Shown: piece by piece, positions 1-12,870 of the stretch
Position numbering within the stretch: the stretch's first letter is position 1
Layout: the number at the start of each line of letters is the position of its first letter
Source of the DNA: a virus
DNA length: 12,870 nucleotides
UHGV virus genome: UHGV-2005248
Direction: 5' to 3' (one strand)
The notes under the pieces: generated by a model
Told to the model about the DNA's origin: nothing
Database searches by the model: none
Seen by the model: the letters and a program-made list of their open reading frames with translations, nothing else
Made by a program: the position numbers and the translations under genes

Positions 1-89
1 TAGCGCTGATGTCCGGCAGTGCTTTTGCCGTTACGCACCACCCCGTCAGTAGCTGAACAGGAGGGACAGCTGATAGAAACAGAAGCCAC
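1..89 (-). CDS. insA: IS1 InsA, N-terminal 29 codons only (gene runs off window start)
   Basis: Minus-strand translation from GTG at 89-87 gives [30 protein letters not shown], matching the InsA N-terminus as I recall it. Confidence 0.7.
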
Positions 90-144
90 TGGAGCACCTC
101 AAAAACACCATCATACACTAAATCAGTAAGTTGGCAGCATCACC
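1..144 (-). mobile_element. IS1 insertion sequence, terminal part (element continues past window start); 23-bp terminal inverted repeat at 122-144
   Basis: Reverse complement of 91-144 reads ggtgatgctgccaacttactgatttagtgtatgatggtgtttttgaggtgctcc, which I recognise as the IS1 end; reverse complement of 1-89 encodes the InsA N-terminus. Recognition from memory, not a database search. Confidence 0.8.
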
Positions 145-750
145 CCGAGGATTGAAAAGCTCAAATCTCTTGATGTTTCTTTTGTTTTTTGAGTAAAAGT
201 TTAAAGTGAAATATATTAGCACCTGTCTAAGATCGTAAACACTAAACTTCCTATCTCCTGATTTTATTTCCACAAGAACATTTGAATAATAAATATCGCC
301 ATATGAATTATTTATTACTCCGCATCCATCGAATTGTGGAGACACTTCAATTTGGTTTTCCATTCCATATCGAGACAAAATGTTTCTTGCTATTTCCCTT
401 ATGGCATTGTACTCAACCATGCTTAAGGGTAGCTTGAAGTTAGAACCGTAAGCGAACCGCTGTAGATATTCTTTTGTTTTTTCAAAAACAACCTGAAAAT
501 CAGCATTATGGAAGATATCATGTGCTGAAAGAATATTTCTGTCTAACGAATCATTCTGTATTGCCCTATATAAATTAAATGCGCACTCATTAACAAAGAC
601 GTTATTTGACCTATTAGCGCAGTCATCTAGAGGAGGATAAACGTCCTCGATGAGACTGCCGTTAATGATGCGTATGAAATTATTAGCATTTGGAAGCAAT
701 TGATTCCAAAATGAAGTGAATTTTCGAGAAAACGTTAATTCAGATATCAT
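118..750 (-). CDS. hypothetical RT-associated protein (candidate effector); 3' end disrupted by IS1, so the stop in the ORF track is not native
   Basis: 210-aa ORF whose start overlaps the RT stop by 4 nt. Its last 8 codons and stop (GDAANLLI, 118-144) are encoded by the IS1 terminus, so the native C-terminus is unknown. No hydrophobic TM segment. Weak D-x8-E-x-K pattern (GDIYYSNVLVEIK) that could be a PD-(D/E)xK nuclease motif. Confidence 0.55.
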   Translation of the reverse strand: MISELTFSRKFTSFWNQLLPNANNFIRIINGSLIEDVYPPLDDCANRSNNVFVNECAFNLYRAIQNDSLDRNILSAHDIFHNADFQVVFEKTKEYLQRFAYGSNFKLPLSMVEYNAIREIARNILSRYGMENQIEVSPQFDGCGVINNSYGDIYYSNVLVEIKSGDRKFSVYDLRQVLIYFTLNFYSKNKRNIKRFELFNPRGDAANLLI

Positions 751-2375
751 AGCGCATCCTCAAGATTTCTTGCGGTATGCCTTTTACTTGCCCAATCCCT
801 GTAAATCACCTCTACAAAGTTGAATGTTTTCTTATTATGCTCTCTCCAGTGCCGTCCTTCATCACCTAAGATGTAACTGGAAACGATCAATAGTCTTCTC
901 TGCAACGGATGCATTGCAGAGAAATTTTTTTTGATATCAGAAAGCCATGCGTAAGAATTAATTTTTGCCATTGACTGTGTAACTATGTTCTTGACTAAGA
1001 TGCTTTCTGGATTGTTATTGTATATTTCACTAAGGATTAGGGTGGATTTTTCTGAATTTTCTTTTGAGAGCATTCGGGCTACATAGGCTAAGTTGAGCTC
1101 AGTACTCAAAATATATGAATCTTGTTTAATTAGTGCAGTTATTTTATCAAGAATAATATCTTTGGTTTCTGTGCTTAATTTTTGCCAGTTGGAGTTAGCT
1201 ACTTGAATTATAGTTGTAAATATTGGATATAACTCATGCAAGTTATTAAACATTACTTTGAAAGCACTACTTATTATTTCATCTGATGTTGCTGAGAATG
1301 CCTTTATCAAATGCTTGCTAAAAGATTGGTTAATTTTTGATTTTTGTAACTCACTACTCAGCATAGCTAACAAGTCAAAATCTTTTAAAGATTCCTTTAT
1401 CTCTTCATATTCCTCTATCGCATTTGCTGAGTAAGGATCGAATCTTATAGGAAGACTCATAAATTTAGCCTTCATAGGAGATTCTTCATCTTCATCATTA
1501 CCATGCAACTTAGCTTTAGTTACTGAAAGGAACTCTTCTTTAGTAACAATATTGGTTTTTTGTTTCTGTAAAGTTAGCCCTTCATTTTCCATCAGTTTTT
1601 TACTAAGCAAAGTTAAAATCTTATGAGCATCCTCTCTAGAGTTACAAAAAATAACAAAGTCGTCGACATAACGCTTATAGTTGATTCTATTCATAGACAA
1701 TAATTTATCAATAGAATCTAGAGCTAGTTCTGCTAATATTCTAGAGGCAGGACATCCAACTGGTACTCCATATGATTTTGTTTCACTAAATGTCTGTAGT
1801 AATTTCTTGATTTTCCCAGAGTAATCTTTATTGGGGTCGACTCTATCTAACGCATTTTCTAAACGGTGGTGATAAATACGCGGATAGAAATCTGCTATAT
1901 CGCATGTAAGTACATACTTTATTTCATCGTTAGAACATTCAGAGATACTGTCTTCTTGATATTTTCTCCAAGAGATCTCTTTATCAAAAAGAGAACCATC
2001 AGCAAGGTTTGGTTTAAAGCGATATGAATAAACCTGCGTTTTAGTAGATCTATTCCTTTCAATATCATCAGCGATTTTTAAAACTAACCCAAGAAAAAAA
2101 GCATTCCAGAATGGATCAATTTGGGTCGCCCACCTGTAACCATAATAACCAATACTTGAAAAGCTATTAATTATGTTTGGTGGAATCTCGATCCTTTTAT
2201 TTTCAAAGTCATTAAATGTTTGCATTAATGCAGTTTTTACTTTCTCCTTATCATCTTCAAATAACCGACTTTCAAATGGGTAAGGGAAAATATCTGTATC
2301 GCCGTGCTTTATAATATTTTCCAATGCAAGCTCAAAGCAATTTTCTAGTTTACTACTATCAAACTCGTTACTCAT
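747..2375 (-). CDS. reverse transcriptase, Abi-class (AbiK/AbiA/Abi-P2-like) with long C-terminal extension
   Basis: 542 aa. RT palm motifs in canonical order: LTCDIADFYPRIYHH (motif A-like), YGVPVGCPASRILAELAL (motif B-like), YKRYVDDFVIF (YxDD catalytic motif), GLTLQKQKTNI (motif D/E-like). The pattern resembles AbiK as I recall it rather than retron or group II intron RTs. AAGGAG Shine-Dalgarno 7 nt upstream of ATG. Strongly AT-rich. Confidence 0.85.
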   Translation of the reverse strand: MSNEFDSSKLENCFELALENIIKHGDTDIFPYPFESRLFEDDKEKVKTALMQTFNDFENKRIEIPPNIINSFSSIGYYGYRWATQIDPFWNAFFLGLVLKIADDIERNRSTKTQVYSYRFKPNLADGSLFDKEISWRKYQEDSISECSNDEIKYVLTCDIADFYPRIYHHRLENALDRVDPNKDYSGKIKKLLQTFSETKSYGVPVGCPASRILAELALDSIDKLLSMNRINYKRYVDDFVIFCNSREDAHKILTLLSKKLMENEGLTLQKQKTNIVTKEEFLSVTKAKLHGNDEDEESPMKAKFMSLPIRFDPYSANAIEEYEEIKESLKDFDLLAMLSSELQKSKINQSFSKHLIKAFSATSDEIISSAFKVMFNNLHELYPIFTTIIQVANSNWQKLSTETKDIILDKITALIKQDSYILSTELNLAYVARMLSKENSEKSTLILSEIYNNNPESILVKNIVTQSMAKINSYAWLSDIKKNFSAMHPLQRRLLIVSSYILGDEGRHWREHNKKTFNFVEVIYRDWASKRHTARNLEDAL

Positions 2376-3552
2376 TCACATTCTCCTTAATAAAAATATA
2401 ATCTGAATACCACTGCATCATATCACGGCGTTTATCAATATATTGAGCATGATTATACGTACCTCTAATATTATTCTTATCTATATGAGCAAGCTGTATT
2501 TCTATCCAAGCCGAATCATATCCTTTTTCGTGGAGGATAGTAGATAAGGAATGTCGAAATCCATGACCAGTAAGTTTTCCACCATAACCAATACGCTTGA
2601 TAACTTGGTTAATACTCGCCTCACTCATAGGCTTGTTCGGATCGTTCCGCCCCGGAAAAACATAACTATACTTCCCTGTCATCATCTTGAGTTCATTTAG
2701 CAAATCTAACGCTTGAGTCGACAAAGGCACAAGGTGTGATCTGCGCATTTTCATCCTTTCAGCAGGAATTTCCCAAATAGCGTTATCTAAATCAAATTCT
2801 GACCATAATGCCGCACGTAATTCGATGGTTCTAACACCTGTAATCATGAGCAATTTCGTGGCAATCAGGACAAGCCGACTTCCGGTATATCCGTTTAAGG
2901 CGCGAAGAAAATCAGGTATCTCATTAGCCTTTAAGAACGGGAAATGATTTGATTGGTGTACATTGAGGGCGCTTGAAAGATCCGCAGCAGGGTTAAACTC
3001 AGCCCTTCCAGTAGCAATGGCATAGCGGAAAACTTCTGAGCATCGCTGCCGAACTTTGCGCATTTTTTCTAATGCACCGCGCTTTTCGATTTTACGCAGC
3101 ACATTAAGCAGTTCTAGCGGTTTAATCTCTCCCACTGGCCTTGTTCCCACATAAGGAAAAATGTCGTTCTTAAACGCTTCCATGATGTCTGATGCATATC
3201 CCGCCGACCATTTGGTAGACTTCTGTTGATGCCACTCTCTGGCTATCTTTTCGAAGGCGTTCTCTGACTCTGTTTGCAGAGCCAGCTTTTGCTCTTTTCG
3301 AACCTCACTAGGGTTCTTTCCTTCTGCCACAAGTTTTCGAGCTTCATCACGACGGGAACGAGCATCAGCAAGAGTGATCGTTGGGTAAACACCAAGCGAG
3401 ATCATTTTGGGTTTACCGGCATAGCGATAACGAAATCGCCAGCTTTTACTTCCATTTGGCTCTACAAGTAAAGACAACCCTTGCCCATCCCCAAGTGTAT
3501 AGGCTTTAGCTTCAGGTTTAGCACGGCGAATCTGCATATCATTTAGGGGCAT
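2368..3552 (-). CDS. int: tyrosine site-specific integrase, P4 family
   Basis: 394 aa. N-terminal Arm DNA-binding signature (AKAYTLGDGQGLSLLVEPNGSKSWRFRYRYAGKPKMISLGVYP ... RDEARKLVAEG). C-terminal catalytic region with HGFRHS box and terminal Tyr region RGTYNHAQYIDKRR. Immediately downstream of a tRNA 3' fragment in the same orientation. Confidence 0.92.
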   Translation of the reverse strand: MPLNDMQIRRAKPEAKAYTLGDGQGLSLLVEPNGSKSWRFRYRYAGKPKMISLGVYPTITLADARSRRDEARKLVAEGKNPSEVRKEQKLALQTESENAFEKIAREWHQQKSTKWSAGYASDIMEAFKNDIFPYVGTRPVGEIKPLELLNVLRKIEKRGALEKMRKVRQRCSEVFRYAIATGRAEFNPAADLSSALNVHQSNHFPFLKANEIPDFLRALNGYTGSRLVLIATKLLMITGVRTIELRAALWSEFDLDNAIWEIPAERMKMRRSHLVPLSTQALDLLNELKMMTGKYSYVFPGRNDPNKPMSEASINQVIKRIGYGGKLTGHGFRHSLSTILHEKGYDSAWIEIQLAHIDKNNIRGTYNHAQYIDKRRDMMQWYSDYIFIKENVNE

Positions 3553-3604
3553 GTGTATAGAATTCCAAAATCGAACAGGAACATATACATAATCCTATAC
3601 ACAT
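3551..3604. repeat. 10-bp perfect inverted repeat (atgtgtatag / ctatacacat) overlapping the integrase start codon; candidate operator or regulatory site
   Basis: 3551-3560 is the exact reverse complement of 3595-3604, with a 34-bp spacer. Confidence 0.3.
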
Positions 3605-3628
3605 TTAGTACTGGATTCTACTGGAAAG

Positions 3629-3700
3629 TTATGGACTAATACGAACAGTAAAAACAAAAAATCTTTTATAAAACAGTGCGGTTATGGATAAATACGGATG
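3629..3700. repeat. two imperfect 20-bp direct repeats (gttatggactaatacgaaca / gttatggataaatacggatg); candidate arm-type integrase binding sites
   Basis: 3629-3648 and 3681-3700 share 16 of 20 positions. They lie between the int start and the tRNA-derived att core. Confidence 0.35.
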
Positions 3701-3716
3701 TTTGAAGAAGTGGAGA

Positions 3717-3762
3717 TGGTGCCGATAATAGGAGTCGAACCTACGACCTTCGCATTACGAAT
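3717..3762 (-). other. 3' 46 nt of a tRNA-Thr(CGU) gene (anticodon loop through CCA end) = attachment-site core; not an intact tRNA
   Basis: Minus strand reads ATTCGTAATGCGAAGGTCGTAGGTTCGACTCCTATTATCGGCACCA (anticodon loop with CGT, T-arm GGTTCGACTCC, acceptor 3' strand, CCA). Sequence from 3763 onward cannot supply the acceptor 5' strand (no GCCGATA) or a D-arm. Confidence 0.75.
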
Positions 3763-4097
3763 TATAAGAATCCGCTTCTAATTCAAAGCATTACCCCATC
3801 AACACTGCGCTCACACGTCCCACCACATCAAAACATGTAAAGCCTTGCAAGCCATTGCGAGGCCTTATGTGTCTCAGTTTTGTCCCACCTTGTATTACGA
3901 CTTGCATAGCCAATGAAGATAAACGTGACGACAAACGGCGCAGCAGTCTTCTTTTCCTTCATACTTTCCCCACCCAGCATGCATACCTTCTACCATAACT
4001 GTAGTGAATGTCTGTTATGAGCGAAAATCGGAAGTTAGTGTCCTCATAATTTTGATAGAATGTTCGAACTTTTCCTTTCTAAGAAACTTGAGAAGTT

Positions 4098-4529
4098 ATG
4101 AAAAAATCACTCGTGCTAGTTATGTTTCTTTTCTCAGCTTGTGTTACTGCGAGTAATGACCTAGATCTATATGATAATCAAGGCAACGCCGTCGTTTATA
4201 TTTCACTTGATGACGAGTTGACTTTATATAGTTGGGAGGGTGAACCAAGCGCCTACCTTAAACATAACCAGAACAATGAGTTTGATGTTTATGGATTCAA
4301 TGGGAATCATTTAGGCTGGTTTACTAATGGTATGTTGATTGATCACGATGGCTATGTTGCCTGTGCAGTAAAAGACATGGTTACCACACCTAATTTGCCA
4401 TCACTTAAATCACTTAAGAGCCTCAAGCCTCTAAAATCGCTAACGGAACTTCCCCCTCTTTTCCCGCTGCTAAAAAATGCCTTTGGTCAGACAAATTGTT
4501 CTTTGTTAGTAGCTTCAGGTGTTGCATAA
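4098..4529 (+). CDS. hypothetical exported protein, possible lipoprotein, with short SLK tandem repeat
   Basis: 143 aa. N-terminal signal-peptide-like segment MKKSLVLVMFLFSAC with Cys after a lipobox-like FSA. AT-rich. C-terminal PSLKSLKSLKPLKSL repeat. Confidence 0.5.
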   Translation: MKKSLVLVMFLFSACVTASNDLDLYDNQGNAVVYISLDDELTLYSWEGEPSAYLKHNQNNEFDVYGFNGNHLGWFTNGMLIDHDGYVACAVKDMVTTPNLPSLKSLKSLKPLKSLTELPPLFPLLKNAFGQTNCSLLVASGVA

Positions 4530-4847
4530 ATCCACAACGGATGCATTTCTTGAAAGGGATGCCCCTCCAGAGGATAAAATGCTTACGGTATCCGCTCCTG
4601 ACACGGAGCGGACCAATCAGGTGGTTGTAAGGTCCGCTATGAGCAAGAAGCGGAAGTTGGCAGTTTTGTGGACTGTCCCCACAAAAGTGACTACAGAAAT
4701 AGTTGCAATTCATAATTGATCATGGGTTGTCAGTTAAACTCGTGGCGATTTAAATAGACTAATTGGGAGTGCGTCCATTACTTATATCTTGTAATGTTAA
4801 CTATCAGAAATGATACAAAGATAATATGTCTTTAAAGAAAAGACTGA

Positions 4848-4875
4848 TGGCGAAAAGTGGCCCGATGAGGGCCAC
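4848..4875 (-). terminator. rho-independent terminator downstream of flxA
   Basis: Perfect 7-bp stem GTGGCCC/GGGCCAC (4857-4875) with 5-nt loop, followed on the minus strand by TTTTCG. Lies 14 nt after the flxA stop. Confidence 0.55.
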
Positions 4876-4889
4876 AATACGGCTGTCAC

Positions 4890-5222
4890 TTAGACGTAAA
4901 TATCAATGGTGCCAGCGGTATTTGTATCGTCTTTTTTCTCTTCTTTTTTATCAGGCTGAACTGTCGCGTCTTCATTCTTTTTCTCTGCCTGCTGCCTTAA
5001 CAACTGCTCCAGTTGAGCCCTGAGGCTTTCAATTTGCTTCTGTACCAATGCAGCCATTTCTTTTTTCTGCTGTGTCGTCATCCCCTCTTCCGATGAGATT
5101 TTCCCAAGCTTTTCAGTCAGCACCTGAATTTGTCTTGTGATTTTGGCTATTTCTGATGTTCCTTCCGGGGCGGAGTTGTTTGAAATAACGGTTGAGGTAT
5201 TTCCCTGAATTGTGACAGACAT
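4890..5222 (-). CDS. flxA: FlxA-like protein (FliA-regulated small coiled-coil protein)
   Basis: 110 aa with a Q/K/E-rich coiled-coil middle (MAALVQKQIESLRAQLEQLLRQQAEKK); size and composition fit the FlxA family. Preceded by a near-consensus sigma-28 promoter and an AAGGAG Shine-Dalgarno. Confidence 0.7.
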   Translation of the reverse strand: MSVTIQGNTSTVISNNSAPEGTSEIAKITRQIQVLTEKLGKISSEEGMTTQQKKEMAALVQKQIESLRAQLEQLLRQQAEKKNEDATVQPDKKEEKKDDTNTAGTIDIYV

Positions 5223-5245
5223 AGATTTCTCCTTTTAAAAAAGCA

Positions 5246-5272
5246 CTATCGGCATGCACAAAAAAATCTTTA
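5246..5272 (-). promoter_or_regulatory. sigma-28 (FliA) promoter for flxA
   Basis: Minus strand reads TAAAGATT-N11-GCCGATAG against consensus TAAAGTTT-N11-GCCGATAA (one mismatch per element, correct spacing). The -10 element ends about 23 nt upstream of the ATG. Confidence 0.6.
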
Positions 5273-6023
5273 ATCGTATTTCTTGTGTCATTAATTGTTT
5301 GATGTTCAGATTGTTTTCCTCGCGGGCTGGCGCGCCTCAGAAAGTAAAGCTTGTTGACAGGGGTAAACGTTCGGCAATAATTTTCTGCCGCATGCGGGTG
5401 TTGCATAAAACGTGCTACGTTCCTTTATCGACAGGTCAGGTCACCGCTCACCCGCCGACGAGAAAGCAACACTGACATGCTAAAGCAAAAAATAGATGAA
5501 TAAGTTGAGTTGTGCATATGTAGCCTGACCGTCACAAAGTATATGGTGTCTGTACCAGTAAGATGATGGCCGGACTCTTTAAAAACGAGCTGACCTGCAC
5601 AATACAGGATGGACTTAGCAATGGCTGCTCCTGGCACATAGCAGCCCTAGAGACAGTGGCGTAAAGTCATGGAGGGTCGGTGGCAGGAGATGCAAATCCT
5701 CTCATACAAAAATACGTAAAATCAATAACGGCTAGAGCTAGAAATCATTCAATACTCGCACTATCTAACATTTACCAGCCAACCGCAGCACGTCTTGCAT
5801 ACGACCTGTCTGCGGTTTCAATCACCTCTCACCACCAGTCCCATCAATAATAATTAAACAGCGCCTAAACAAAATAAATAACAACAAGTCAACAACCTCG
5901 ACAGGATGCCGATGGGATGATGAAGAGATAAGAAAGAATAACTAGTAAAGCCCTAAAACGTCAGCGTTCAGACGCGTTTTTTACTTAACCGGTAACAAAT
6001 ACGTTGTATCATAGCAACATAAA

Positions 6024-7973
6024 ATGATTGTTCTAAATCAGATTAACTCCTCACTTTTGTACAATGTCGCTTACAGGTATACCATGAAATCCGAGACGCT
6101 AACTGTCCAACAACTTTTTCAAGACCGCCGACAATACTGCGTTCCATTCTATCAACGTGCCTATGTATGGACTCAGCGAAACCAATGGTCAGCTCTACTG
6201 GAGGATATCCTAGAGAAAGCACAATCCCGGCTCTCGGGTACAAAACCAACTCCCCATTTCCTTGGTGCAGTGGTACTGGAACCTCAACCAAAAAAAGGAT
6301 TATTAGGTGTAGATTCCATACATATTATTGATGGTCAGCAACGATTGACCACTCTTCAATATGTTCTGGCATCCATCCGATTAGCATTACGTGCGACAGA
6401 TCTTTCCAACTTAGAGCCTCTCATTTCGTCTTGCCTGAAAAACTCAAACGAAGACACAATGCGAAATAAAGAAGTAGAGCGCTTCAAACTGTGGCCAACT
6501 TTTCGGGATCAAACTCATTTTATTCAAAGTTTTAATGTTGAAAATATTGACGATATCCGGAATGTATTCTCTGATAGTTTCACGCAGCATGGTACGTTGC
6601 GTAAGCATTTTAATCACCCGCCATCACTAGAAGCATTATGTTTTTTTACTGAAGCCTTTATAAAGTGGATTAAAATAGAAAATCACTCACCACGAGAAAA
6701 TGCTGTAGCATTAATTGAGGCTGTCTTGACGGATCTGAAACTAGTAAGCATATTTCTCGAGGCTGAAGATGACGCTCAAATAATTTTTGAAACATTAAAT
6801 GGCAGAGGTGCGGAACTTCATGCCACAGATCTTATTCGCAATTATATTTTTATGTGCGCTGAACATGAAAATATTAATGCTGTTGAATTATATGAGAATG
6901 AGTGGAAGATCTTTGAAGATACGTACTGGTCAGAAAGACAACGTCGTGGTCGTATTAATAAACCACGCATGGAGTGGCTAGTGCATGCGACATTGCAATC
7001 AGAAAGGCAACGTGAAATCGATCTGTCTCGTCTTTACAATGAGTATCGTGATTATGTAAGTAAGGACTTGCCTTCACAACGAGCAGATCTGCAAGTAAAG
7101 CGCCTCAAACAATATGCATCACAATATAAAGAATTGGTTGGTGGTTTTGGCACAACCCCCATCTCACACTTTGGACATCGCATCGCAGCCTATGATGTGA
7201 CGACACTTTATCCGCTTGCTTTGTTCATTTCGATAGCTAACATCGCCGATGATGAGAAAGCAGCCATGTATAATGATCTTGTCTCCTACGTAGTACGAAG
7301 AGCCGTATGTGGCCTGACGCCAAAGAATTACAACAATGTATTTATGAATGTATTGCGGCACTTGTCTAAAACGGAAATTTCCAGTGTTGAGTTACGTAAT
7401 ATCCTCAATAGCTTAAATGGCGAAGCCTCACGTTGGCCTGGGGACTCAGAATTTCTCAACGCTTGCATCAATGCTCCACTTTATCCTGGCAGGCTCGACG
7501 CACCGAAAATGCGCTCAATGTTAACGGAACTTGAAAGAGAACTTTGTCGCCAAGTGAAGACAGAGAAGCCTGATGTTCCAAATCTTTCTAACCTCGATAT
7601 CGATCATCTTATGCCTCAAAGTTGGTATTCCTGTTGGCCTCTCGAAAATGGTCATATGGTGACAAATTCAGATGCTACGGTATTGAACCAAATTGTTCTG
7701 TCTGGAACCGATCTTACCCCTGAACAGCTACTGGTAAGGAAACGGCAACAAGCGATAGCTACGTTGGGAAATCTAACATTGCTTAACCTTAGCGTAAACC
7801 GTTCTGTTCAGAATGCTGTATTTCTGAAAAAACGTGATGCTCTCATCGTCCACACCAATCTACGACTGAACATTCCACTTATAGTTAAGGATAAATGGGA
7901 TGAGGATGAAATCCTGGAGCGGGGTAAAAAGTTGGGGGAAATTGCATTGAAAGTATGGCCAAAACACGATTAA
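6024..7973 (+). CDS. GmrSD-like type IV (modification-dependent) restriction endonuclease, DUF262 + DUF1524 fusion
   Basis: 649 aa from the first ATG; the more likely start is ATG 6084 (MKSETLTV...), which has an AGG upstream. N-terminal DUF262/ParB-like signature including IIDGQQRLTTL. C-terminal His-Me finger (DUF1524-like) DIDHLMPQSW ... GNLTLLNLSVNRSVQN. Confidence 0.75.
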   Translation: MIVLNQINSSLLYNVAYRYTMKSETLTVQQLFQDRRQYCVPFYQRAYVWTQRNQWSALLEDILEKAQSRLSGTKPTPHFLGAVVLEPQPKKGLLGVDSIHIIDGQQRLTTLQYVLASIRLALRATDLSNLEPLISSCLKNSNEDTMRNKEVERFKLWPTFRDQTHFIQSFNVENIDDIRNVFSDSFTQHGTLRKHFNHPPSLEALCFFTEAFIKWIKIENHSPRENAVALIEAVLTDLKLVSIFLEAEDDAQIIFETLNGRGAELHATDLIRNYIFMCAEHENINAVELYENEWKIFEDTYWSERQRRGRINKPRMEWLVHATLQSERQREIDLSRLYNEYRDYVSKDLPSQRADLQVKRLKQYASQYKELVGGFGTTPISHFGHRIAAYDVTTLYPLALFISIANIADDEKAAMYNDLVSYVVRRAVCGLTPKNYNNVFMNVLRHLSKTEISSVELRNILNSLNGEASRWPGDSEFLNACINAPLYPGRLDAPKMRSMLTELERELCRQVKTEKPDVPNLSNLDIDHLMPQSWYSCWPLENGHMVTNSDATVLNQIVLSGTDLTPEQLLVRKRQQAIATLGNLTLLNLSVNRSVQNAVFLKKRDALIVHTNLRLNIPLIVKDKWDEDEILERGKKLGEIALKVWPKHD

Positions 7974-8223
7974 TGCAATTAATAAAATGATTATAGCGGC
8001 TTTACATTAGTAAGGCCGCTACTCACTATTAAATCCTTTAATTTGCAACAAGAACAGCAGTGTCAGCCCTAGGTTTCGGACTTTGTACCGCTTATCTTGT
8101 CTTCAAAAATCAGCTCGCATCCTGCACAGCTCAACGCATTACGTTGTAGATCGGTGTTCTGGTCATTTGTTGATACGCGTACATAGCCAATAAGCATGGT
8201 AGCTCCCCCTGACAAAAGCAGGA

Positions 8224-8559
8224 ATGATGCCATTTGCTCGTTATTTCTGCATTTTCATAAACGTTGGTTTTGGAGAAGGTGCTAACTGGGTTATGTTACC
8301 TGGAGGAATGATAATTCAGCGTGTTTATCTTGGATTTCCTGTTGGCACCAATGTAAGACACATAACTCTCCCCCGGTCGTTTACAACAACGAACTATTCC
8401 ATCTCAATTAACTGGAATGATATCGGTACTGTAACAACTGAAACACAATCGCCAGCAAATGTGGCGGTTGTTCATCAAACAAAATCATTAACAGGGGCCA
8501 GCATCTGGCAGGCAGGTCCCGGGGGATTTAATGTGGACATTATAGCGGTGGGGTATTGA
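8224..8559 (+). CDS. tail-fibre C-terminal fragment (alternative variable tip, S'-like), likely remnant
   Basis: 111-aa ORF ending 2 nt before the plus-strand tfa. Frame is closed upstream at 8200-8202. Position mirrors the tail-fibre tip genes of invertible segments; no recognisable motif. Confidence 0.35.
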
Positions 8560-8560
8560 T

Positions 8561-8989
8561 ATGTACGTATGGAGCGCTAAAGCAAATGGCTTTTTCCCCA
8601 TATCGGAGAAAGAAAAATTTGAGGCATCAGGTCTGTGGCCTGATGATGGTGTAATAGTCAGTGAGGAAGAACATAAAAAGTTATTTATGGATATTCCACC
8701 AGGAAAACAGATTGGAACACTGAATGGAAAACCAGCACTGATAGATATTCCTCAGCCGACCCAAAAGGAATTAATAGCTATTGCTGAAGTTAAAAAATCC
8801 CAATTACGGGAAAAAGCTGACAGTGAAATATCCTGGCGTCAGGATGCTGTTGATGCTGATATCGCAACTGATGAAGAAACTTCAACTCTCACCGAATGGA
8901 AGAAATACCGAGTGCTGCTGATGCGTGTTGATACTTCAACAGCACCCGATATTGAATGGCCTACGCCTCCGGCAGTTCAGGCCAGATGA
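8561..8989 (+). CDS. tfa: tail fibre assembly protein (Tfa chaperone)
   Basis: C-terminus [23 protein letters not shown] is the conserved Tfa C-terminal signature (compare TfaE ...[23 protein letters not shown] as I recall it). Confidence 0.85.
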
Positions 8990-9566
8990 CATCCGGCGCG
9001 GTGCTGGGATCTGTTGCCGTCACCGCGTCAATGTAATCCAGCACAGCGTTAAGCCGGGTTGTTTCTGCCTGCGTCAGTTTCCGCCCGGCCTGTAATTTCA
9101 GCTGAATCAGACTAATGGAAGCCATTGCTGCATCAATCAGTGACTGGCGCTGTGCTTCTGCCGCTTCTACTGCGGCGCTATGCTGTGCCTCAGTATCGGT
9201 CACCCATTTCTCACCATCCCATTTATCGTATGGCGTTAATGGGGCGATAGTGGTTGTATTTTCAGGGTAATCACCCGGAACTGTGATTTCTCTGGTATCT
9301 CCCGTTTCGGTACTATAGACAACTTCACCGCGATGGTCTGGCACATATTCCCATGAATTTAAATCTACAGAGCGACAGATTGCATAACCAGCTTTATGTA
9401 TACCTGGTGCATCCAAACAGGAACATGCCGGGATACCGACGCCGACAGCGAGATATTCAGTTGATGTAGAAATATATTCCCGCGTTTCACCATCATAATT
9501 ATAAATGATAATGTCTCCTGCTTTTATGGCAATGAGTTCGCTATTTAATATAGCTTTATTCATCAT
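8961..9566 (-). CDS. tfa: tail fibre assembly protein (second, divergent Tfa)
   Basis: 201 aa. Tfa-like core ([14 protein letters not shown]) and C-terminal [14 protein letters not shown]. Start overlaps the tail-fibre gene stop by 4 nt. Converges on and overlaps the plus-strand tfa by 29 nt. Confidence 0.8.
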
Positions 9567-10237
9567 GCGGCCCTCACAATATAATTAAAAGCGATGTTAC
9601 GAGGACGAGTTTCTGTACCTACATTTCCACTAATTTCACCATAACGTTTAACACTACGAGAGCTAAGAGCTCGTAGTGAGGAAGGCACCTTAAGACCGGG
9701 TTCGTCCGTTTTAACTATTCCCCCGTCACCGTATGTAGCCAGTATTCCTGGGTTTACTCCTTCCCGTGCACTTCCTGCGGCGAGTCCGTCCCCTGTCCAT
9801 AATTCCATATAGTGTGCATGGTCCAAAATTGTGTGTGGCTGCCAATTAAGCAAAGCGCGACCAGTATCAATCCCGCGACCGTCATCCCAGCCACGAATAA
9901 ATTCACCGCGTAAATCAGGCAATTTATTGGTCTGGTAAGCCTTTGCCAGTTCCGGGTATTCTTCAGCAGAAAAAGCCGCACCATTGCATTTCAGCCAGCC
10001 TGTTGGCGGAGTGGCTGAGGGCCACGGAACAGGCACACCAACGGGTAATGCCGAACCTTCTCCCAAACCAAGGTTTTCGAGAGCCGTTTTCACCGTGCCA
10101 TCCGATTTGATATCGCCAAACGGATTCTTGCGGCTTAACAGCAGCGCACGAAGCGCGGTAAGCAACTGGTCGTGCCGCCCCTTCTCCAGGCTGGCACCGG
10201 ATGCCTCCACCACGCTGCAAAGCTCCTCCTGCAACAT
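9563..10237 (-). CDS. tail fibre protein, C-terminal part with phage tail-collar domain (5' portion missing)
   Basis: Collar-domain-like motif [40 protein letters not shown]. The frame stays open upstream of the first ATG to 10339, then hits a stop beside N-gene-derived sequence. Confidence 0.7.
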
Positions 10238-10854
10238 GTCAAAGTAGTCATCATCCAGATCGGTGGCAGGCGTGCCTGTCTGGGGGTTACCACGGGTAAA
10301 ACCGTTCTTACCCGCGCCGAACTTATCCTTCTGCGCGGTTTACCGATAACGTCGTTCTGCACGAAATCCGCCACACCATCGATACTGAAACCGCTGAAGC
10401 TGTCACTGATGCAGTCATCCAGTGCAGAACAGGATGACATCAGCGTCTGCGCCGTCGCCGCACCTGATGTGGGGTAAGAGAGTTCTCCTGCTTCGACAAA
10501 CTTCAGGTCAAAGCGGACAATACGCCCTTCACTTTTCGATGTGCTGACCCGAACTTCCCCGTCAACACAGACTTTCAGCTCACCATATGTCGGGTGGACA
10601 AGCGTGCCGGGACCGGGTTTATTCAGCGCTTCAATCAGGCGATCGCGCTGGTCAAAGCAGTCATCTCCCACCACATAAGCTGTGATGGACGGGCGGAAAG
10701 TGACTTTTCCCAGATCTTCGGTATAGGGCTTGTCGCGGTTCGGGTATTCATGTGTTTCCACACGGCGACCGGTTCCCGCACTTTCTTCTTCAACCTTAAA
10801 CGGCACACCTCGAAATGACGCATCCTGTAGCCTGTCTTTCCACGTCATATACAC
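10135..10854 (-). pseudogene. Mu-like DNA circulation protein N, N-terminal fragment; reading frame degenerates after about aa 170
   Basis: N-terminus MYMTWKDRLQDASFRGVPFKVEE..RRVETHEYPNRDKPYTEDLGKV..AYVVGDD..RDRLIEALNKPGPGTLVHPTYG fits the DNA-circulation N-terminal domain pattern as I recall it. The last ~70 aa of the ORF are R/C/W/P-rich, out-of-frame read-through of tail-fibre sequence. Confidence 0.6.
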
Positions 10855-10860
10855 TCCGAA

Positions 10861-10889
10861 AATAAAAAAGCCACCTATTAGAAGGTGGC
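10861..10889 (-). terminator. rho-independent terminator after the 176-aa moron gene
   Basis: Stem GCCACC/GGTGGC (10870-10875 / 10884-10889) with 8-nt loop, followed on the minus strand by TTTTTTATT (10861-10869). Confidence 0.6.
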
Positions 10890-10909
10890 CTTGTAATGAA
10901 TTTTATTAA

Positions 10910-11440
10910 TTAGCGGGTCAGAAACAACGAATCTTTATACTTTTGCTGTTGTTCATTTAAATACTTAGCTGTTTCATCGCTGGCAAATGGAAATATTACC
11001 GTATTTTTAGGCATGGTAATTTCTTTTTTGTCCAGCGTCAGAGTAAACATAGGAACATACTGAGCAGAGTAACGCACCGCAGAAACGAGCTCTAGTTTAG
11101 ACTCTTCAATAACACTTAAATTATCCAGGCTAACTTTCTCTTCATCTTTTTTCTTTGACGCATTTAAAGTTTTTATTACTTTATTTAATTTCTCCTGAAA
11201 ATCCTCCTTAAAGTTTTCAGGATTGCCGTCGACAACAAGAATCTGTTCACCCTGATTATCTGGAAAAATAATCTTTGCACTTATCAATTTATTTTCTTTA
11301 TAAACATCACCAAGTTTTATGGCTCCTCCAGATAACTGAATAATATGTTCATCTTTAAAGGAGATGTTGCCAGAGATTATGAGAGATGAAAAAATAGCCG
11401 CTGCTCCAAGAATTACACTTGCTGTGATATAGCCTTTCAT
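10910..11440 (-). CDS. hypothetical membrane-anchored protein (AT-rich moron inside tail module)
   Basis: 176 aa. Single N-terminal hydrophobic helix ITASVILGAAAIFSSLIISG, then a K/E-rich soluble domain. Markedly more AT-rich than the flanking tail genes. Has its own terminator. Confidence 0.6.
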   Translation of the reverse strand: MKGYITASVILGAAAIFSSLIISGNISFKDEHIIQLSGGAIKLGDVYKENKLISAKIIFPDNQGEQILVVDGNPENFKEDFQEKLNKVIKTLNASKKKDEEKVSLDNLSVIEESKLELVSAVRYSAQYVPMFTLTLDKKEITMPKNTVIFPFASDETAKYLNEQQQKYKDSLFLTR

Positions 11441-11531
11441 TTTTCGCCTATTAACATTTTTCTAAATGTGCATTAATTCTATCACTCTATTTATGACTTA
11501 CAACCAGCAATACATGTGAGGGGAATCCTGG

Positions 11532-12455
11532 CTACCAAAATCGGGTATAGCCAACATCGTGATTTATATCAATGCCACTGGAGCGTGTTTCCGTAACCCG
11601 CATACCTGGTGGCATATTTATAAATGATACCTTGATCTCACCATCAACTTTTGGCGCGGTAGCTTTATTAATCATGAAGGGATTCGAGCCTGTGGCATCG
11701 GAGGCGTTGTTTGCCTGAGCCGGATCCACCGCCGGATAAGGAGTGTATCCCCGTGCCGGTATTCCCGTCCCATAAGCATCATAAGCACCCGCGCCCCACT
11801 GCGCAGAGTTAATGGCATCGACCGTGTCACCGGAACTGTCGGTAAACCACTCAATAATTGGCTTCAGCTTGTCCCACATATCCTGAAACCACTTAACAAC
11901 CGGCCCCCAGTTATTGATCACCATCCCCAGCGGCGACCAGGCAAAAACTTTCTTAAGGAGTTCCCAGCCAGCCTCAAAATAAGGACCAATGGTTTCCCAG
12001 AGCTTCTTGAAATAAGGTCCGACAACATCCCAGTTAGTGATAATTAATCCCGCAGCCAGGGCTATCGCCGTCGCAATCATGCCAATCGGCGTCATCGACA
12101 TGATCCTGCTGACAATGCTGATGGCACTGCCCACGCCCATCAATCCCAGTTTCAGAATCGCAAGACCGGCAGCAAGCCCGACGACGCCGCGAATAACCCG
12201 GGGATTTTCATCCGCAAACTTCGTGAATTTTTCCCCCAACTCCCCCAGCCATTGCGTGATATTTTTGGCGTCACCAGAAAATGCGCCGCCAATAGCCGCA
12301 AGGCCGTTAGTTGCGGTCCCCGTCATTGCCTCCCACAGGTTGGACAGCGTACCAAGCTGTGCCTGAACACGTTTATTCAGGCTGGCCTGTTTATTCATCT
12401 TTTGCTGGATCTGATCGTAACCATCCTTTCCTTTATCGATCAGCGCATTGACCAC
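11532..12455 (-). CDS. phage tail tape measure protein, C-terminal portion (5'-truncated)
   Basis: 307 aa from GTG. G/A-rich hydrophobic segments (GVVGLAAGLAILKLGLMGVGSAI, IGMIATAIALAAGLII) and W-rich repeats typical of tape-measure C-terminal regions. Frame is open only to 12518, so the N-terminal bulk of the gene is absent. Confidence 0.6.
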   Translation of the reverse strand: MVNALIDKGKDGYDQIQQKMNKQASLNKRVQAQLGTLSNLWEAMTGTATNGLAAIGGAFSGDAKNITQWLGELGEKFTKFADENPRVIRGVVGLAAGLAILKLGLMGVGSAISIVSRIMSMTPIGMIATAIALAAGLIITNWDVVGPYFKKLWETIGPYFEAGWELLKKVFAWSPLGMVINNWGPVVKWFQDMWDKLKPIIEWFTDSSGDTVDAINSAQWGAGAYDAYGTGIPARGYTPYPAVDPAQANNASDATGSNPFMINKATAPKVDGEIKVSFINMPPGMRVTETRSSGIDINHDVGYTRFW

Positions 12456-12555
12456 CTGAAGGGTTTCGGCATCATCACCAAATATTGCCTTAAGTACACC
12501 TGTTCGCTTACGGGATGTTTATGGAACGCTTTAACGAGTTATCGGAGTTACGCAA

Positions 12556-12870
12556 ATGCGCATGAATGTTTTCGAAATGGAAGGGTTTCTTCGTGGGAGA
12601 TGTGTACCGCGAGATCTGAAAGTAAATGAAACAGATGCTGAATACCTGGTGCGTAAATTCGATGCGCTTGAAGCTAAATGTGCAGCACAGGAAAACAAAG
12701 TAATACCAGTGTCAACTGAACTGCCACCAGCAAATGAAAGTGTTTTGTTATTCGATGCTAACGGAGAAGGCTGGCTAATTGGCTGGCGTTCTCTCTGGTA
12801 CACCTGGGGACAAAAAGAAACCGGAGAATGGCAGTGGACATTTCAGGTCGGGGACCTTGAAAACGTCAAT
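12556..12870 (+). CDS. hypothetical phage protein, DUF551-like (partial, runs off window end)
   Basis: Open frame from ATG 12556 (GGAG upstream) to the window end with no stop; not in the ORF track because it has no stop in the window. W-rich pattern ELPPANESVLLFDANGEGWLIGWRSLWYTWG resembles DUF551 prophage proteins as I recall them. Confidence 0.45.
   Translation, partial: MRMNVFEMEGFLRGRCVPRDLKVNETDAEYLVRKFDALEAKCAAQENKVIPVSTELPPANESVLLFDANGEGWLIGWRSLWYTWGQKETGEWQWTFQVGDLENVN

What the first reader, a model, noticed from the sequence alone, without database searches (positions are those of the whole stretch)
3551..3762. Integrase lies beside only the 3' 46 nt of tRNA-Thr: signature of tandem or composite islands at one tRNA site
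The minus strand carries the anticodon loop through CCA of a tRNA-Thr(CGU) and then sequence that cannot complete a tRNA. With tRNA-targeting integrases, int normally sits next to the reconstituted intact tRNA, and a bare 3' fragment marks the far end of an element. An int next to a fragment implies a second element (the phage debris to the right) integrated later into the same tRNA, or a rearrangement. The int leader also has two 20-bp direct repeats and a 10-bp inverted repeat over the int start, which could be arm-type and regulatory sites.
Basis: partly seen in the sequence, partly recalled or inferred. Interest (0 to 1): 0.45.

Follow-up and report, generated by a model that had tools for sequence, protein, structure and literature searches.

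The report
Tandem satellite and prophage at thrW
The 46-base tRNA-Thr fragment is the shared joint between a decayed SfV/e14-like prophage and a P4-like satellite that sit one after the other in the E. coli thrW integration hotspot, which is a common and well-known arrangement.

Summary
Window 3717-3762 (minus strand) is an exact copy of positions 31-76 of E. coli thrW, tRNA-Thr(CGU). No complete tRNA or other RNA gene lies there. These 46 bases are letter for letter the published att core of phages SfI, SfII, SfV, SfX and P22.

Window 145-3762 is 100% identical to a P4-like satellite that abuts an intact thrW in strain H3. It carries a P4-type integrase followed by a DRT type 8 defence cargo. 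Window 3716-8278 is 99.8% identical to the attR end of a complete 42.5-kb prophage in strain YF-1. The two matches overlap only in the 46-base core.

Among 5426 complete E. coli genomes:
- 948 have the empty site.
- 340 have the phage end on the native flank.
- 120 have the satellite integrase on an intact thrW.
- 325 have the window's tandem junction.

The repeats in the integrase leader are real. The "inverted repeat" is made of a 9-mer, CTATACACA, which recurs at both ends of the satellite. A related island carries a different 9-mer at the same places, so these are probably arm-type Int sites.

Which element arrived first cannot be decided. The arrangement is ordinary and already known.

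The parts
1..144 (.). End of an IS1 copy that cuts off the satellite's cargo region. The IS continues beyond the window's left edge.
   Evidence: Window 1-144 matches, at 91% identity, the end of an annotated IS1 family transposase element in strain D3. Identity to the P4-like element of strain H3 starts at 145.
145..750 (-). N-terminal 202 codons of the PD-(D/E)XK nuclease partner of the DRT type 8 system. The C-terminal end is replaced by IS1. The mechanical ORF 118-750 reads into the IS.
   Evidence: The full-length 246-aa version in strain H3 hits PADLOC RTasPDDEXK at E=5.5e-69. The window aligns to it only from 145.
747..2375 (-). Drt8 reverse transcriptase (542 aa). It is defence cargo in the variable region between int and psu of a P4-like satellite.
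   Evidence: Pfam RVT_1 at E=1.2e-18. PADLOC Drt8 at E=4.9e-166 over the full length. In strains H3 and 18AR0366 it sits between int and psu.
2368..3552 (-). P4-type tyrosine integrase of the satellite (394 aa).
   Evidence: Arm-DNA-bind_3, Phage_int_M and Phage_integrase domains. 100% nucleotide identity to the int of strain H3, which is annotated WP_001130497.1. 46-47% identical to integrases of CUS-3, g341c and phiEt88.
3553..3716 (-). The int-side arm of the satellite's attachment site, which is also the int leader. It holds three copies of the proposed arm-type motif: CTATACACA at 3595-3603 (+), a degenerate copy ATATACATA at about 3584-3592 (+), and an inverted copy at 3552-3560 (-) that abuts the int ATG. 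It also holds two 16-nt direct repeats at 3628-3643 and 3681-3696.
   Evidence: Positions are conserved in relatives whose leaders are 76-93% identical. The D3 island changes all copies together to GATACCCCC.
3717..3762 (-). The 46-nt 3' part of thrW, tRNA-Thr(CGU). It is at once the attR core of the prophage and the tRNA-side core of the satellite. It is not a functional tRNA.
   Evidence: Identical to the published att core of SfI, SfII, SfV, SfX and P22 (PMC3636060).
3763..4097 (.). The attR-proximal arm of the SfV/e14-like prophage.
   Evidence: Contiguous with the core at 99.8% identity in strain YF-1, where it ends a complete prophage. Partly shared with phage phi458.
4098..8233 (+). Cargo (moron) region of the prophage. 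It contains a 4-fold beta-flower protein (4098-4529), flxA-like (4890-5222, -), a ydfV remnant (5425-5637, -), a GmrSD/DUF262 type IV restriction enzyme (6024-7973) and a remnant of a pin-type invertase (ORF 8069-8233, -).
   Evidence: Pfam. PADLOC mREase_IV at 1440 bits. The annotation of YF-1 carried over through the 99.8% alignment.
8224..12870 (-). Decayed tail module of the prophage. It holds tail-fibre and tail-fibre-assembly genes in both orientations (8224-8989 +, 8961-10237 -). A roughly 4.5-kb deletion joint lies at 10340/10341. The N-terminal part of the DNA circularisation protein is at 10135-10854, a hypothetical gene at 10910-11440, and part of the tape-measure gene at 11532-12455.
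   Evidence: Pfam. In the piecewise alignment to YF-1, window 10341 joins YF-1 locus 24660 to 29172. The context in strain cM2a agrees.

Best explanation
The window covers the joint between two mobile elements that occupy the E. coli thrW integration site in tandem. In the direction of the tRNA the layout is:

proA - intact thrW (outside the window) - SfV/e14-like lambdoid prophage, now decayed - 46-nt thrW 3' fragment - P4-like satellite (int, Drt8 defence cargo, cut off by IS1) - ... yagP side.

**How it arises.** Each element carries in its attP a copy of the 3' part of thrW, and its tyrosine integrase recombines that copy with the tRNA gene. Integration rebuilds the tRNA at one end and leaves a bare 3' copy at the other end. 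When a second element enters a site that is already occupied, one core copy ends up between the two elements. Here that copy serves both as the attR core of the prophage and as the tRNA-side core of the satellite. This is why the satellite's int, which normally follows an intact thrW, follows only 46 nt.

**The leader.** The 164-nt stretch between the core and int is the int-side arm of the satellite's attP. The CTATACACA copies are most likely arm-type sites bound by the N-terminal arm-binding domain of Int. The inverted copy at the ATG would let Int repress its own synthesis. The two 16-nt repeats are probably sites for a second protein, either an excisionase/Vis-type factor or Int itself.

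**Shown and inferred.** The sequence identities, the junction position, the population states and the motif distribution are shown. Protein binding, autoregulation and the order of arrival are inferred.
For: **The core**
- It is an exact 46-nt thrW 3' fragment, and no tRNA is present in the window.
- The same 46 bases are published as the att core of SfI, SfII, SfV, SfX and P22 (PMC3636060).

**The two flanks**
- Window 145-3762 is 100.000% identical to strain H3. There the order is proA - thrW(intact) - int - RT - nuclease - psu - delta - ... - Icd-like - derepression protein - primase.
- Window 3716-8278 is 99.8% identical to YF-1. There the fragment lies directly on the yagP flank and closes a complete prophage whose own int abuts the intact thrW.
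- Strain cM2a shows the same with a 21-kb decayed prophage.
- The two matches overlap only in the core.

**All four site states exist among 5426 genomes**
- Empty: 948.
- Phage end on the native flank: 340.
- Satellite int on intact thrW: 120.
- Tandem junction as in the window: 325.

**The same fragment has different left-hand neighbours**
- A mobilisable island in strain D3 whose Int is 63% identical.
- A complete P4-like element in O157 strain 319.

**Precedent in the literature**
- Tandem integration at thrW has been produced experimentally with SfI and SfX (PMC3306764).
- Use of a resident prophage's attR as attB has been shown for Sp10 and Rac (PMC2669165).

**Arm-type sites**
- CTATACACA occurs 4 times in 32.5 kb of strain H3, against 0.06 expected. 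Two copies lie 12 bp apart near the far-end core and two lie in the int leader and at the int start.
- The D3 island has GATACCCCC in the same geometry.
- The int has an arm-binding domain.
Against: - The intact thrW and the far end of the satellite are not in the window. No genome in the collection holds the whole window; the best covers 60%. The tandem state of this particular genome therefore rests on relatives.
- The core is identical in both partners, so it carries no trace of which element came first.
- No binding or expression data exist for the leader motifs.
- An RNA hairpin of -17 kcal/mol that covers the AUG would be preserved by the same sequences, so a role at the RNA level is not excluded.
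- The satellite copy here is cut by IS1 and may no longer be mobile.
Confidence: 0.9

Rival explanations
1. Order variant A. The P4-like satellite was resident next to the intact thrW, and the SfV/e14-like phage later integrated into the rebuilt tRNA. That pushed the satellite away and left the 46-nt copy between the two.
For: - In the laboratory SfI entered the tRNA-proximal attL of a resident SfX prophage at thrW (PMC3306764).
- The identical satellite sits on an intact thrW in other genomes.
- The same satellite (99.6-100% identical) is found next to phages with at least three different cargo regions: the window, 18AR0366 and E6474.
Against: - The final structure is the same as in variant B.
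- The same phage end is also found next to three different left-hand neighbours: the yagP flank, the D3 island and the satellite.
- The phage is heavily decayed, which would fit an older resident.
Confidence: 0.5
2. Order variant B. The phage was resident, and the satellite later integrated into the phage's attR fragment. That fragment still holds the last roughly 17-20 nt of thrW that the P4-type Int uses.
For: - The far-end core of the satellite in strains H3 and D3 is only TGGTG-CGATAATAGGA, about 17 nt of the tRNA's 3' end with one base missing. The 46-nt fragment therefore contains the satellite's whole target.
- Use of a resident prophage's attR as attB is documented (PMC2669165).
- The phage-only state is common, at 340 genomes.
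Against: - Nothing distinguishes it structurally from variant A.
- I tested the idea that each integrase can use only one of the two sites, which would fix the order. Ten genomes carry the reverse junction of phage int end, 17-nt core and satellite alpha arm. That idea fails, so the order carries no information.
Confidence: 0.4
3. A single element plus a rearrangement. Int once lay beside an intact thrW, and a deletion, IS event or other illegitimate recombination removed the 5' 30 nt of the tRNA and brought in unrelated phage debris.
For: The region is rich in IS elements and deletions: IS1 at 1-144 and a 4.5-kb deletion at 10340/10341.
Against: - The break falls exactly at the boundary of the published 46-base att core.
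- The DNA to its right is the normal attR arm of an intact prophage at 99.8% identity.
- The same junction is found in 325 genomes.
- An accidental deletion would not reproduce this boundary.
Confidence: 0.03
4. Int belongs to the right-hand phage. On this reading there is one element with its integrase at the fragment end, as with intF of CP4-6 in K-12.
For: In K-12, intF lies 110 nt from a 49-nt thrW fragment at the far end of CP4-6. An int beside a fragment can therefore be a normal layout for a single element.
Against: - Here int lies on the 3' side of the fragment and on the same strand, which is outside the element that the fragment closes.
- Int and its leader are 100% identical to a P4-like satellite that exists alone on thrW.
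- The phage's own integrase is at the other end, next to the intact thrW, in YF-1 and cM2a.
Confidence: 0.02
5. The inverted repeat over the int start acts as an RNA hairpin that hides the start codon and controls translation, rather than as DNA sites for Int.
For: The predicted hairpin has a 13-bp stem at -17 kcal/mol that includes the AUG. Both arms are fully conserved in relatives.
Against: - The same 9-mer occurs twice, 12 bp apart, at the far end of the element, about 8.4 kb away, where no hairpin with the leader is possible.
- The D3 island changes all five copies together, including the two at the far end.
- A DNA-binding role explains all the copies. A hairpin explains only two of them. 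The two roles could coexist.
Confidence: 0.15

Closest known systems
att core of Shigella flexneri serotype-converting phages SfI, SfII, SfV and SfX and of Salmonella phage P22 at tRNA-thrW
   Same: The 46-base core is identical letter for letter (PMC3636060). The host site, downstream of proA, is the same. The relative YF-1 has the HK97-type head and Mu/e14-type tail gene set, like that described for SfV and SfI. The phage integrase abuts the rebuilt tRNA.
   Different: The cargo next to attR is not the gtrABC O-antigen modification cluster. It is a beta-flower protein, flxA-like and a GmrSD type IV restriction enzyme. The prophage in the window is a remnant with a 4.5-kb deletion.
Tandem SfI-SfX lysogens of S. 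flexneri (PMC3306764)
   Same: Two elements sit in tandem at thrW with an att core copy between them. This was produced experimentally by sequential infection.
   Different: There both elements are full phages with the same 46-bp core and related integrases. Here the second element is a P4-like satellite whose integrase is of another type and uses only about 17 nt of the tRNA's 3' end.
P4-like satellites of Enterobacterales (PMC8628076), including the P4-like prophage Sp2 of O157 Sakai (PMC2669165)
   Same: A P4-type integrase sits at one end, followed by a variable cargo region and then psu, delta and the rest of the core set in 100%-identical relatives. O157 strain 319 shows the same layout: thrW, phage remnant, fragment, then a P4-like element. 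Tandem elements are mentioned for this family.
   Different: Only int and part of the cargo lie in the window. The copy is cut by IS1, and in H3 and 18AR0366 the primase end is also damaged. The equivalence of strain 319's elements to Sakai Sp1 and Sp2, and their location at thrW, rests on my memory. It was not stated in the text I read.
CP4-6 cryptic prophage of E. coli K-12 at thrW (intF and its thrW fragment)
   Same: It uses the same tRNA site and carries a bare thrW 3' fragment beside an integrase gene at the yagP side.
   Different: The fragment is 49 nt, not 46. intF is 466 aa, divergent from the fragment and on its 5' side, so it belongs to the element that the fragment closes.

Membership tests
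Functional tRNA-Thr(CGU) gene | Complete cloverleaf of about 76 nt with acceptor, D, anticodon and T arms | tested here: not met
   ARAGORN finds nothing and Rfam finds nothing. Only positions 31-76 of thrW are present, and the upstream 30 nt are unrelated.
SfV/P22-type attachment site at thrW | The 46-base core ATTCGTAATGCGAAGGTCGTAGGTTCGACTCCTATTATCGGCACCA | tested here: met
   Exact match at 3717-3762 to the core printed in PMC3636060.
SfV/P22-type attachment site at thrW | The core closes a prophage whose other end carries the cognate integrase next to the rebuilt thrW | tested here: inconclusive
   The other end is outside the window. The feature is met in relatives that share the arm at about 99-99.8% identity: YF-1 and cM2a.
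P4-type (arm-binding) tyrosine integrase | N-terminal arm-binding domain, central domain and C-terminal catalytic domain | tested here: met
   PF13356 at 9e-28, PF22022 at 2e-35 and PF00589 at 1.2e-25. The candidate catalytic residues R241, H330-x-x-R333, H356 and Y366 were read by eye from the sequence and not tested further.
P4-like satellite | [quoted passage not shown] | tested here: inconclusive
   Only int is inside the window. In strain H3, 100% identical over 145-3762, RefSeq annotates psu, an ogr/Delta-like protein, an HTH regulator, an Icd-like protein, a derepression protein (partial) and a primase (partial) in the P4 order. I did not run profile searches on those genes.
P4-like satellite | int lies next to the att site, with the intact tRNA on the int side when the element is alone | tested here: met
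   120 genomes carry this int leader running into an intact thrW and the proA spacer, many at 100% identity. In the window the tRNA is replaced by the 46-nt fragment.
DRT type 8 defence system | Drt8 reverse transcriptase together with an intact PD-(D/E)XK nuclease partner | tested here: not met
   The RT hits Drt8 at 4.9e-166. The partner hits RTasPDDEXK at 5.5e-69 in H3. In the window it loses its C-terminal 44-45 codons to IS1.

The most novel reading that the evidence does not exclude
The leader could show concerted change of five binding sites: two on the far arm, two on the int arm and one inverted at the int ATG. The sites read CTATACACA in this satellite and GATACCCCC in an island whose Int is 63% identical. 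If so, these thrW elements would be a natural matched pair for working out how P4-type arm-binding domains read their sites and how Int shuts off its own gene. Separately, the tandem state (325 genomes) outnumbers the satellite-alone state (120 genomes). That might mean an occupied thrW is a preferred landing site rather than an accident.
Probability: 0.15. Interest if true: 0.3.

Novelty: already known. Interest (0 to 1): 0.1.

Why it matters
The result matters mainly for annotation. The 46-nt piece should be labelled as an att core or pseudo-tRNA that marks the border between two mobile elements, and not as a damaged tRNA gene. The integrase should be assigned to the P4-like satellite on its left, not to the phage remnant on its right.

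The locus also illustrates how defence genes pile up at one tRNA hotspot. Here they are a DRT type 8 system on the satellite and a GmrSD type IV restriction enzyme on the prophage. No new principle is involved.

Tried and rejected
1. **Fixed-order hypothesis.** I supposed that each integrase can use only one of the two available sites. The phage Int would need the anticodon region with the 5' half of the tRNA. The satellite Int would need the 3' end with the native flank. The order phage-then-satellite would then be forced. Two results reject this. Ten genomes carry the reverse junction of phage int end, 17-nt core and satellite alpha arm. The phage's int-side arm also imitates the native flank downstream of thrW.

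2. **A second exact core copy.** I looked for one at the far end of the satellite using 12-mers and found none. Alignment then showed a degenerate copy with one base missing, TGGTG-CGATAATAGGA.

3. **More copies of the 16-nt direct repeat.** I searched elsewhere in the element for GTTATGGAYWAATACG. Only the two leader copies turned up, plus one 3-mismatch hit in proA that is probably chance. These repeats are therefore specific to the int-side arm.

4. **An int promoter.** The simple promoter scan found no sigma-70-like site on the int strand in the leader, so the int promoter remains unlocated.

5. **A genome holding the whole window.** None was found. The best covers 60%.

6. **The weak Rfam hits.** IS009, Phe_leader and sR41 are all below their gathering scores and outside the region of the finding. 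I did not pursue them.
Full report
**Observation**

The minus strand of window 3717-3762 reads ATTCGTAATGCGAAGGTCGTAGGTTCGACTCCTATTATCGGCACCA. This string occurs once in the window, and none of 200 shuffles gave a match. It equals positions 31-76 of K-12 thrW, tRNA-Thr(CGU). The identity stops exactly there: the 30 bases upstream (aatgctttgaattagaagcggattcttata) bear no relation to the 5' part of the tRNA.

ARAGORN finds no tRNA or tmRNA anywhere in the window. Rfam at E<=1 reports nothing in this region. The fragment is therefore real, is far beyond chance, and is not part of another complete RNA gene.

The integrase gene (2368-3552, minus strand, 394 aa) lies on the same strand, 164 nt downstream of the fragment's CCA end. 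It has the three domains of P4-type integrases: Arm-DNA-bind_3, Phage_int_M and Phage_integrase.

**What lies on each side**

A local BLAST of the window against fetched loci gave a clear picture.

- Window 145-3762 is 100.000% identical to the chromosome of strain H3. There the gene order is proA, intact thrW, int, RT, a 246-aa protein, psu, an ogr/Delta-like protein, a hypothetical protein, an HTH regulator, an Icd-like protein, a derepression protein, a primase fragment, then yagP. This is the gene order of a P4-like satellite as described in PMC8628076.
- Window 3716-8278 is 99.8% identical to strain YF-1. There the same 46-nt fragment lies directly on the chromosomal yagP flank and closes a complete prophage. 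That prophage has terminase, portal, an HK97-type capsid, a Mu/e14-type sheath, tube and baseplate, lysis genes, Q, and repressor genes.
- The prophage's other end in YF-1 carries its own 372-aa integrase, which ends 14 nt from an intact thrW next to proA. From fragment to tRNA it spans about 42.5 kb.
- The two homology blocks overlap only in 3716/3717-3762, which is the core. This is the signature of a site-specific recombination joint shared by two elements.

**Identity of the core**

The 46 bases are printed as the att core of phage SfI in PMC3636060. That paper states the core is identical in SfII, SfV, SfX and P22. The right-hand element is therefore an SfV/e14-like thrW phage, and the fragment is its attR core.

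**State of the two elements in the window**

*The satellite.* It is cut at 144/145 by an IS1 end. This removes the C-terminal end of the PD-(D/E)XK partner of a DRT type 8 system. The RT hits Drt8 at 4.9e-166, and the full-length partner in H3 hits RTasPDDEXK at 5.5e-69.

*The phage.* It is a remnant.

- Its cargo region is intact up to 8278. It holds a beta-flower protein, flxA-like, a ydfV remnant, a GmrSD type IV restriction enzyme and a pin remnant.
- The tail-fibre region differs from YF-1.
- A deletion of about 4.5 kb joins the tail-fibre gene to the DNA circularisation gene at 10340/10341.
- Only part of the tape-measure gene follows.
- Strain cM2a matches the right part best (3716-12870). 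There a 21-kb remnant of the same phage runs from the fragment to an intact thrW with the phage int.

**Population picture**

I searched junction-specific queries against 5426 complete E. coli genomes and counted places that cover at least 80% of each query.

| State of the thrW site | Genomes |
|---|---|
| Empty (yagP flank, intact thrW, proA), many at 100% identity to the sequence I predicted | 948 |
| Phage arm plus fragment directly on the yagP flank | 340 |
| Satellite-type int and leader running into intact thrW and the proA spacer | 120 |
| Int, leader, fragment and phage arm, as in the window | 325 |

These counts depend on the megablast coverage threshold. They include diverged leaders such as the O157 type, which is 81% identical in the leader.

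The fragment can also be followed by other elements. In strain D3 it is followed by a mobilisable island whose integrase is 63% identical. O157 strain 319 has thrW, a phage remnant, the fragment and a complete P4-like element. From memory, this corresponds to Sp1 and Sp2 of O157 Sakai. PMC2669165 confirms that Sp2 is P4-like, but the text I read does not give its site.

**Mechanism**

Both elements use tyrosine integrases that recombine an attP copy of the tRNA's 3' part with thrW. This rebuilds the tRNA at one end and leaves a bare copy at the other.

The phage's identity block is 46 nt, from the anticodon loop to CCA. The satellite's far-end copy in H3 and D3 is only TGGTG-CGATAATAGGA, about 17 nt of the 3' end with one base missing. 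The two integrases therefore act at different places within the same tRNA.

When both elements are present, one core copy lies between them. That is why the satellite's int faces only 46 nt.

Tandem integration at thrW has been produced in the laboratory: SfI entered the attL of a resident SfX (PMC3306764). Use of a resident prophage's attR as attB has also been shown, for Sp10 and Rac (PMC2669165). Either route gives the structure seen here.

I tested whether the order is forced by site requirements, and it is not. Ten genomes carry the reverse junction. The phage's int-side arm also imitates the native flank. The order of arrival remains open.

**The leader repeats**

The direct repeats exist as 16-mers that match at 14 of 16 positions, at 3628 and 3681. 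This was reached in 4 of 300 shuffles. The inverted repeat has a perfect 10-nt core and 13 of 14 over the longer arms, and it covers the int ATG. This was reached in 1 of 300 shuffles.

Comparison with relatives says more than these statistics. In leaders that are 76-93% identical to the window's, both arms of the inverted repeat are unchanged and the direct repeats keep their positions.

The arms of the inverted repeat are copies of one 9-mer, CTATACACA.

- In 32.5 kb of strain H3 this 9-mer occurs four times, against 0.06 expected. Two copies lie 12 bp apart about 75-95 nt from the far-end core. One lies in the leader, and one is inverted at the int start.
- A degenerate fifth copy, ATATACATA, lies 11-12 bp before the leader copy (read from the sequence).
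- The D3 island has a different 9-mer, GATACCCCC, in the same geometry. Two copies lie 12 bp apart on the far arm, two lie 12 bp apart in the leader (one with a mismatch), and one is inverted immediately before the int ATG.

Sites on both arms of attP that change together with the integrase are what is expected of arm-type Int sites, and the integrase has an arm-binding domain. The copy at the ATG suggests autoregulation by Int. From memory, negative control of P4 int by Int and Vis has been reported, but I could not read that paper here.

An RNA hairpin of -17 kcal/mol covering the AUG is also possible. It does not explain the far-arm copies.

The 16-nt repeats occur only on the int arm. D3 has its own pair at the same positions. 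They probably bind a second factor. This is inference.

**Comparison with K-12**

CP4-6 also ends in a thrW fragment beside an integrase gene, intF. There the fragment is 49 nt, and intF is divergent from it and on its 5' side. An int beside a fragment is therefore not in itself evidence for two elements. The strand and side of int relative to the fragment decide the matter, and here they point to two elements.

**Verdict**

The arrangement is common, found in about 6% of complete E. coli genomes. Its core sequence is published, and tandem occupation of thrW has been shown experimentally. It is already known and of low interest beyond correct annotation.

Noticed in passing
window 145-2375 (-): A DRT type 8 defence system (Drt8 RT plus a PD-(D/E)XK nuclease) sits as cargo between int and psu of the P4-like satellite. 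The RT start overlaps the int stop by 8 nt, which suggests co-transcription with int. In the window the nuclease gene is cut by IS1 at 144/145, so the system is probably inactive.
   Followed up: partly
window 6024-7973 (+): A GmrSD/DUF262-DUF1524 type IV restriction enzyme that targets modified DNA (PADLOC mREase_IV, 1440 bits) is carried as cargo near the attR end of the prophage. In Shigella Sf phages the gtrABC cluster occupies this position.
   Followed up: partly
window 8069-10237: This is the remnant of an invertible tail-fibre switch. A short pin-type recombinase fragment (ORF 8069-8233, -) is followed by tail-fibre C-terminal and assembly genes in both orientations (8224-8989 +, 8961-10237 -). 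A sub-threshold Rfam hit to IS009 (55 bits, gathering score 117) lies inside the assembly gene at 8721-8940.
   Followed up: no
window 10340/10341: A deletion joint of about 4.5 kb. Relative to strain YF-1 it removes ymfQ, the baseplate J, gp46 and V genes, the baseplate assembly gene and most of the DNA circularisation gene. It fuses the tail-fibre gene region to the circularisation gene's N-terminal part.
   Followed up: partly
L007 7715-7732 and L004 about 10200: The far-end core of the satellite and of the D3 island is TGGTG-CGATAATAGGA, which lacks one G/C relative to thrW (GGCACCA becomes GCACCA). This suggests that the P4-type Int exchanges strands within the last few bases of the tRNA and that the imperfect copy comes from the element's attP.
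   Followed up: partly
L006 12010-12031 compared with L003 17980-18001: The phage's int-side arm next to the tRNA 3' end (GTAACTTATTGATTTAAA) imitates the native chromosomal flank (GTAACTCTTTGATTTTAA). Strain D3's chromosomal flank carries the phage version, as if left behind by an earlier cycle of integration and excision.
   Followed up: no
ten E. coli genomes, e.g. NZ_CP123240.1 3966060-3966502: These carry the reverse-order junction: the end of a phage-type integrase gene, the 17-nt degenerate core, then the satellite's alpha-side arm. In YZLc1-3 the satellite's int-leader hit carries no tRNA annotation, which may mean arrays of three or more elements at thrW.
   Followed up: partly
L007 7850-8150: Repeated TGTTCACC-type octamers and longer GGGTGAACA...TTCACC repeats lie next to the satellite's far-end arm. 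From memory they resemble the P4 ori/crr iterons bound by the alpha protein.
   Followed up: no
window 3842-3875 (+): Two overlapping terminator-like hairpins lie in the phage arm between the core and the beta-flower gene. The scan found 2, against 0.4 expected.
   Followed up: no
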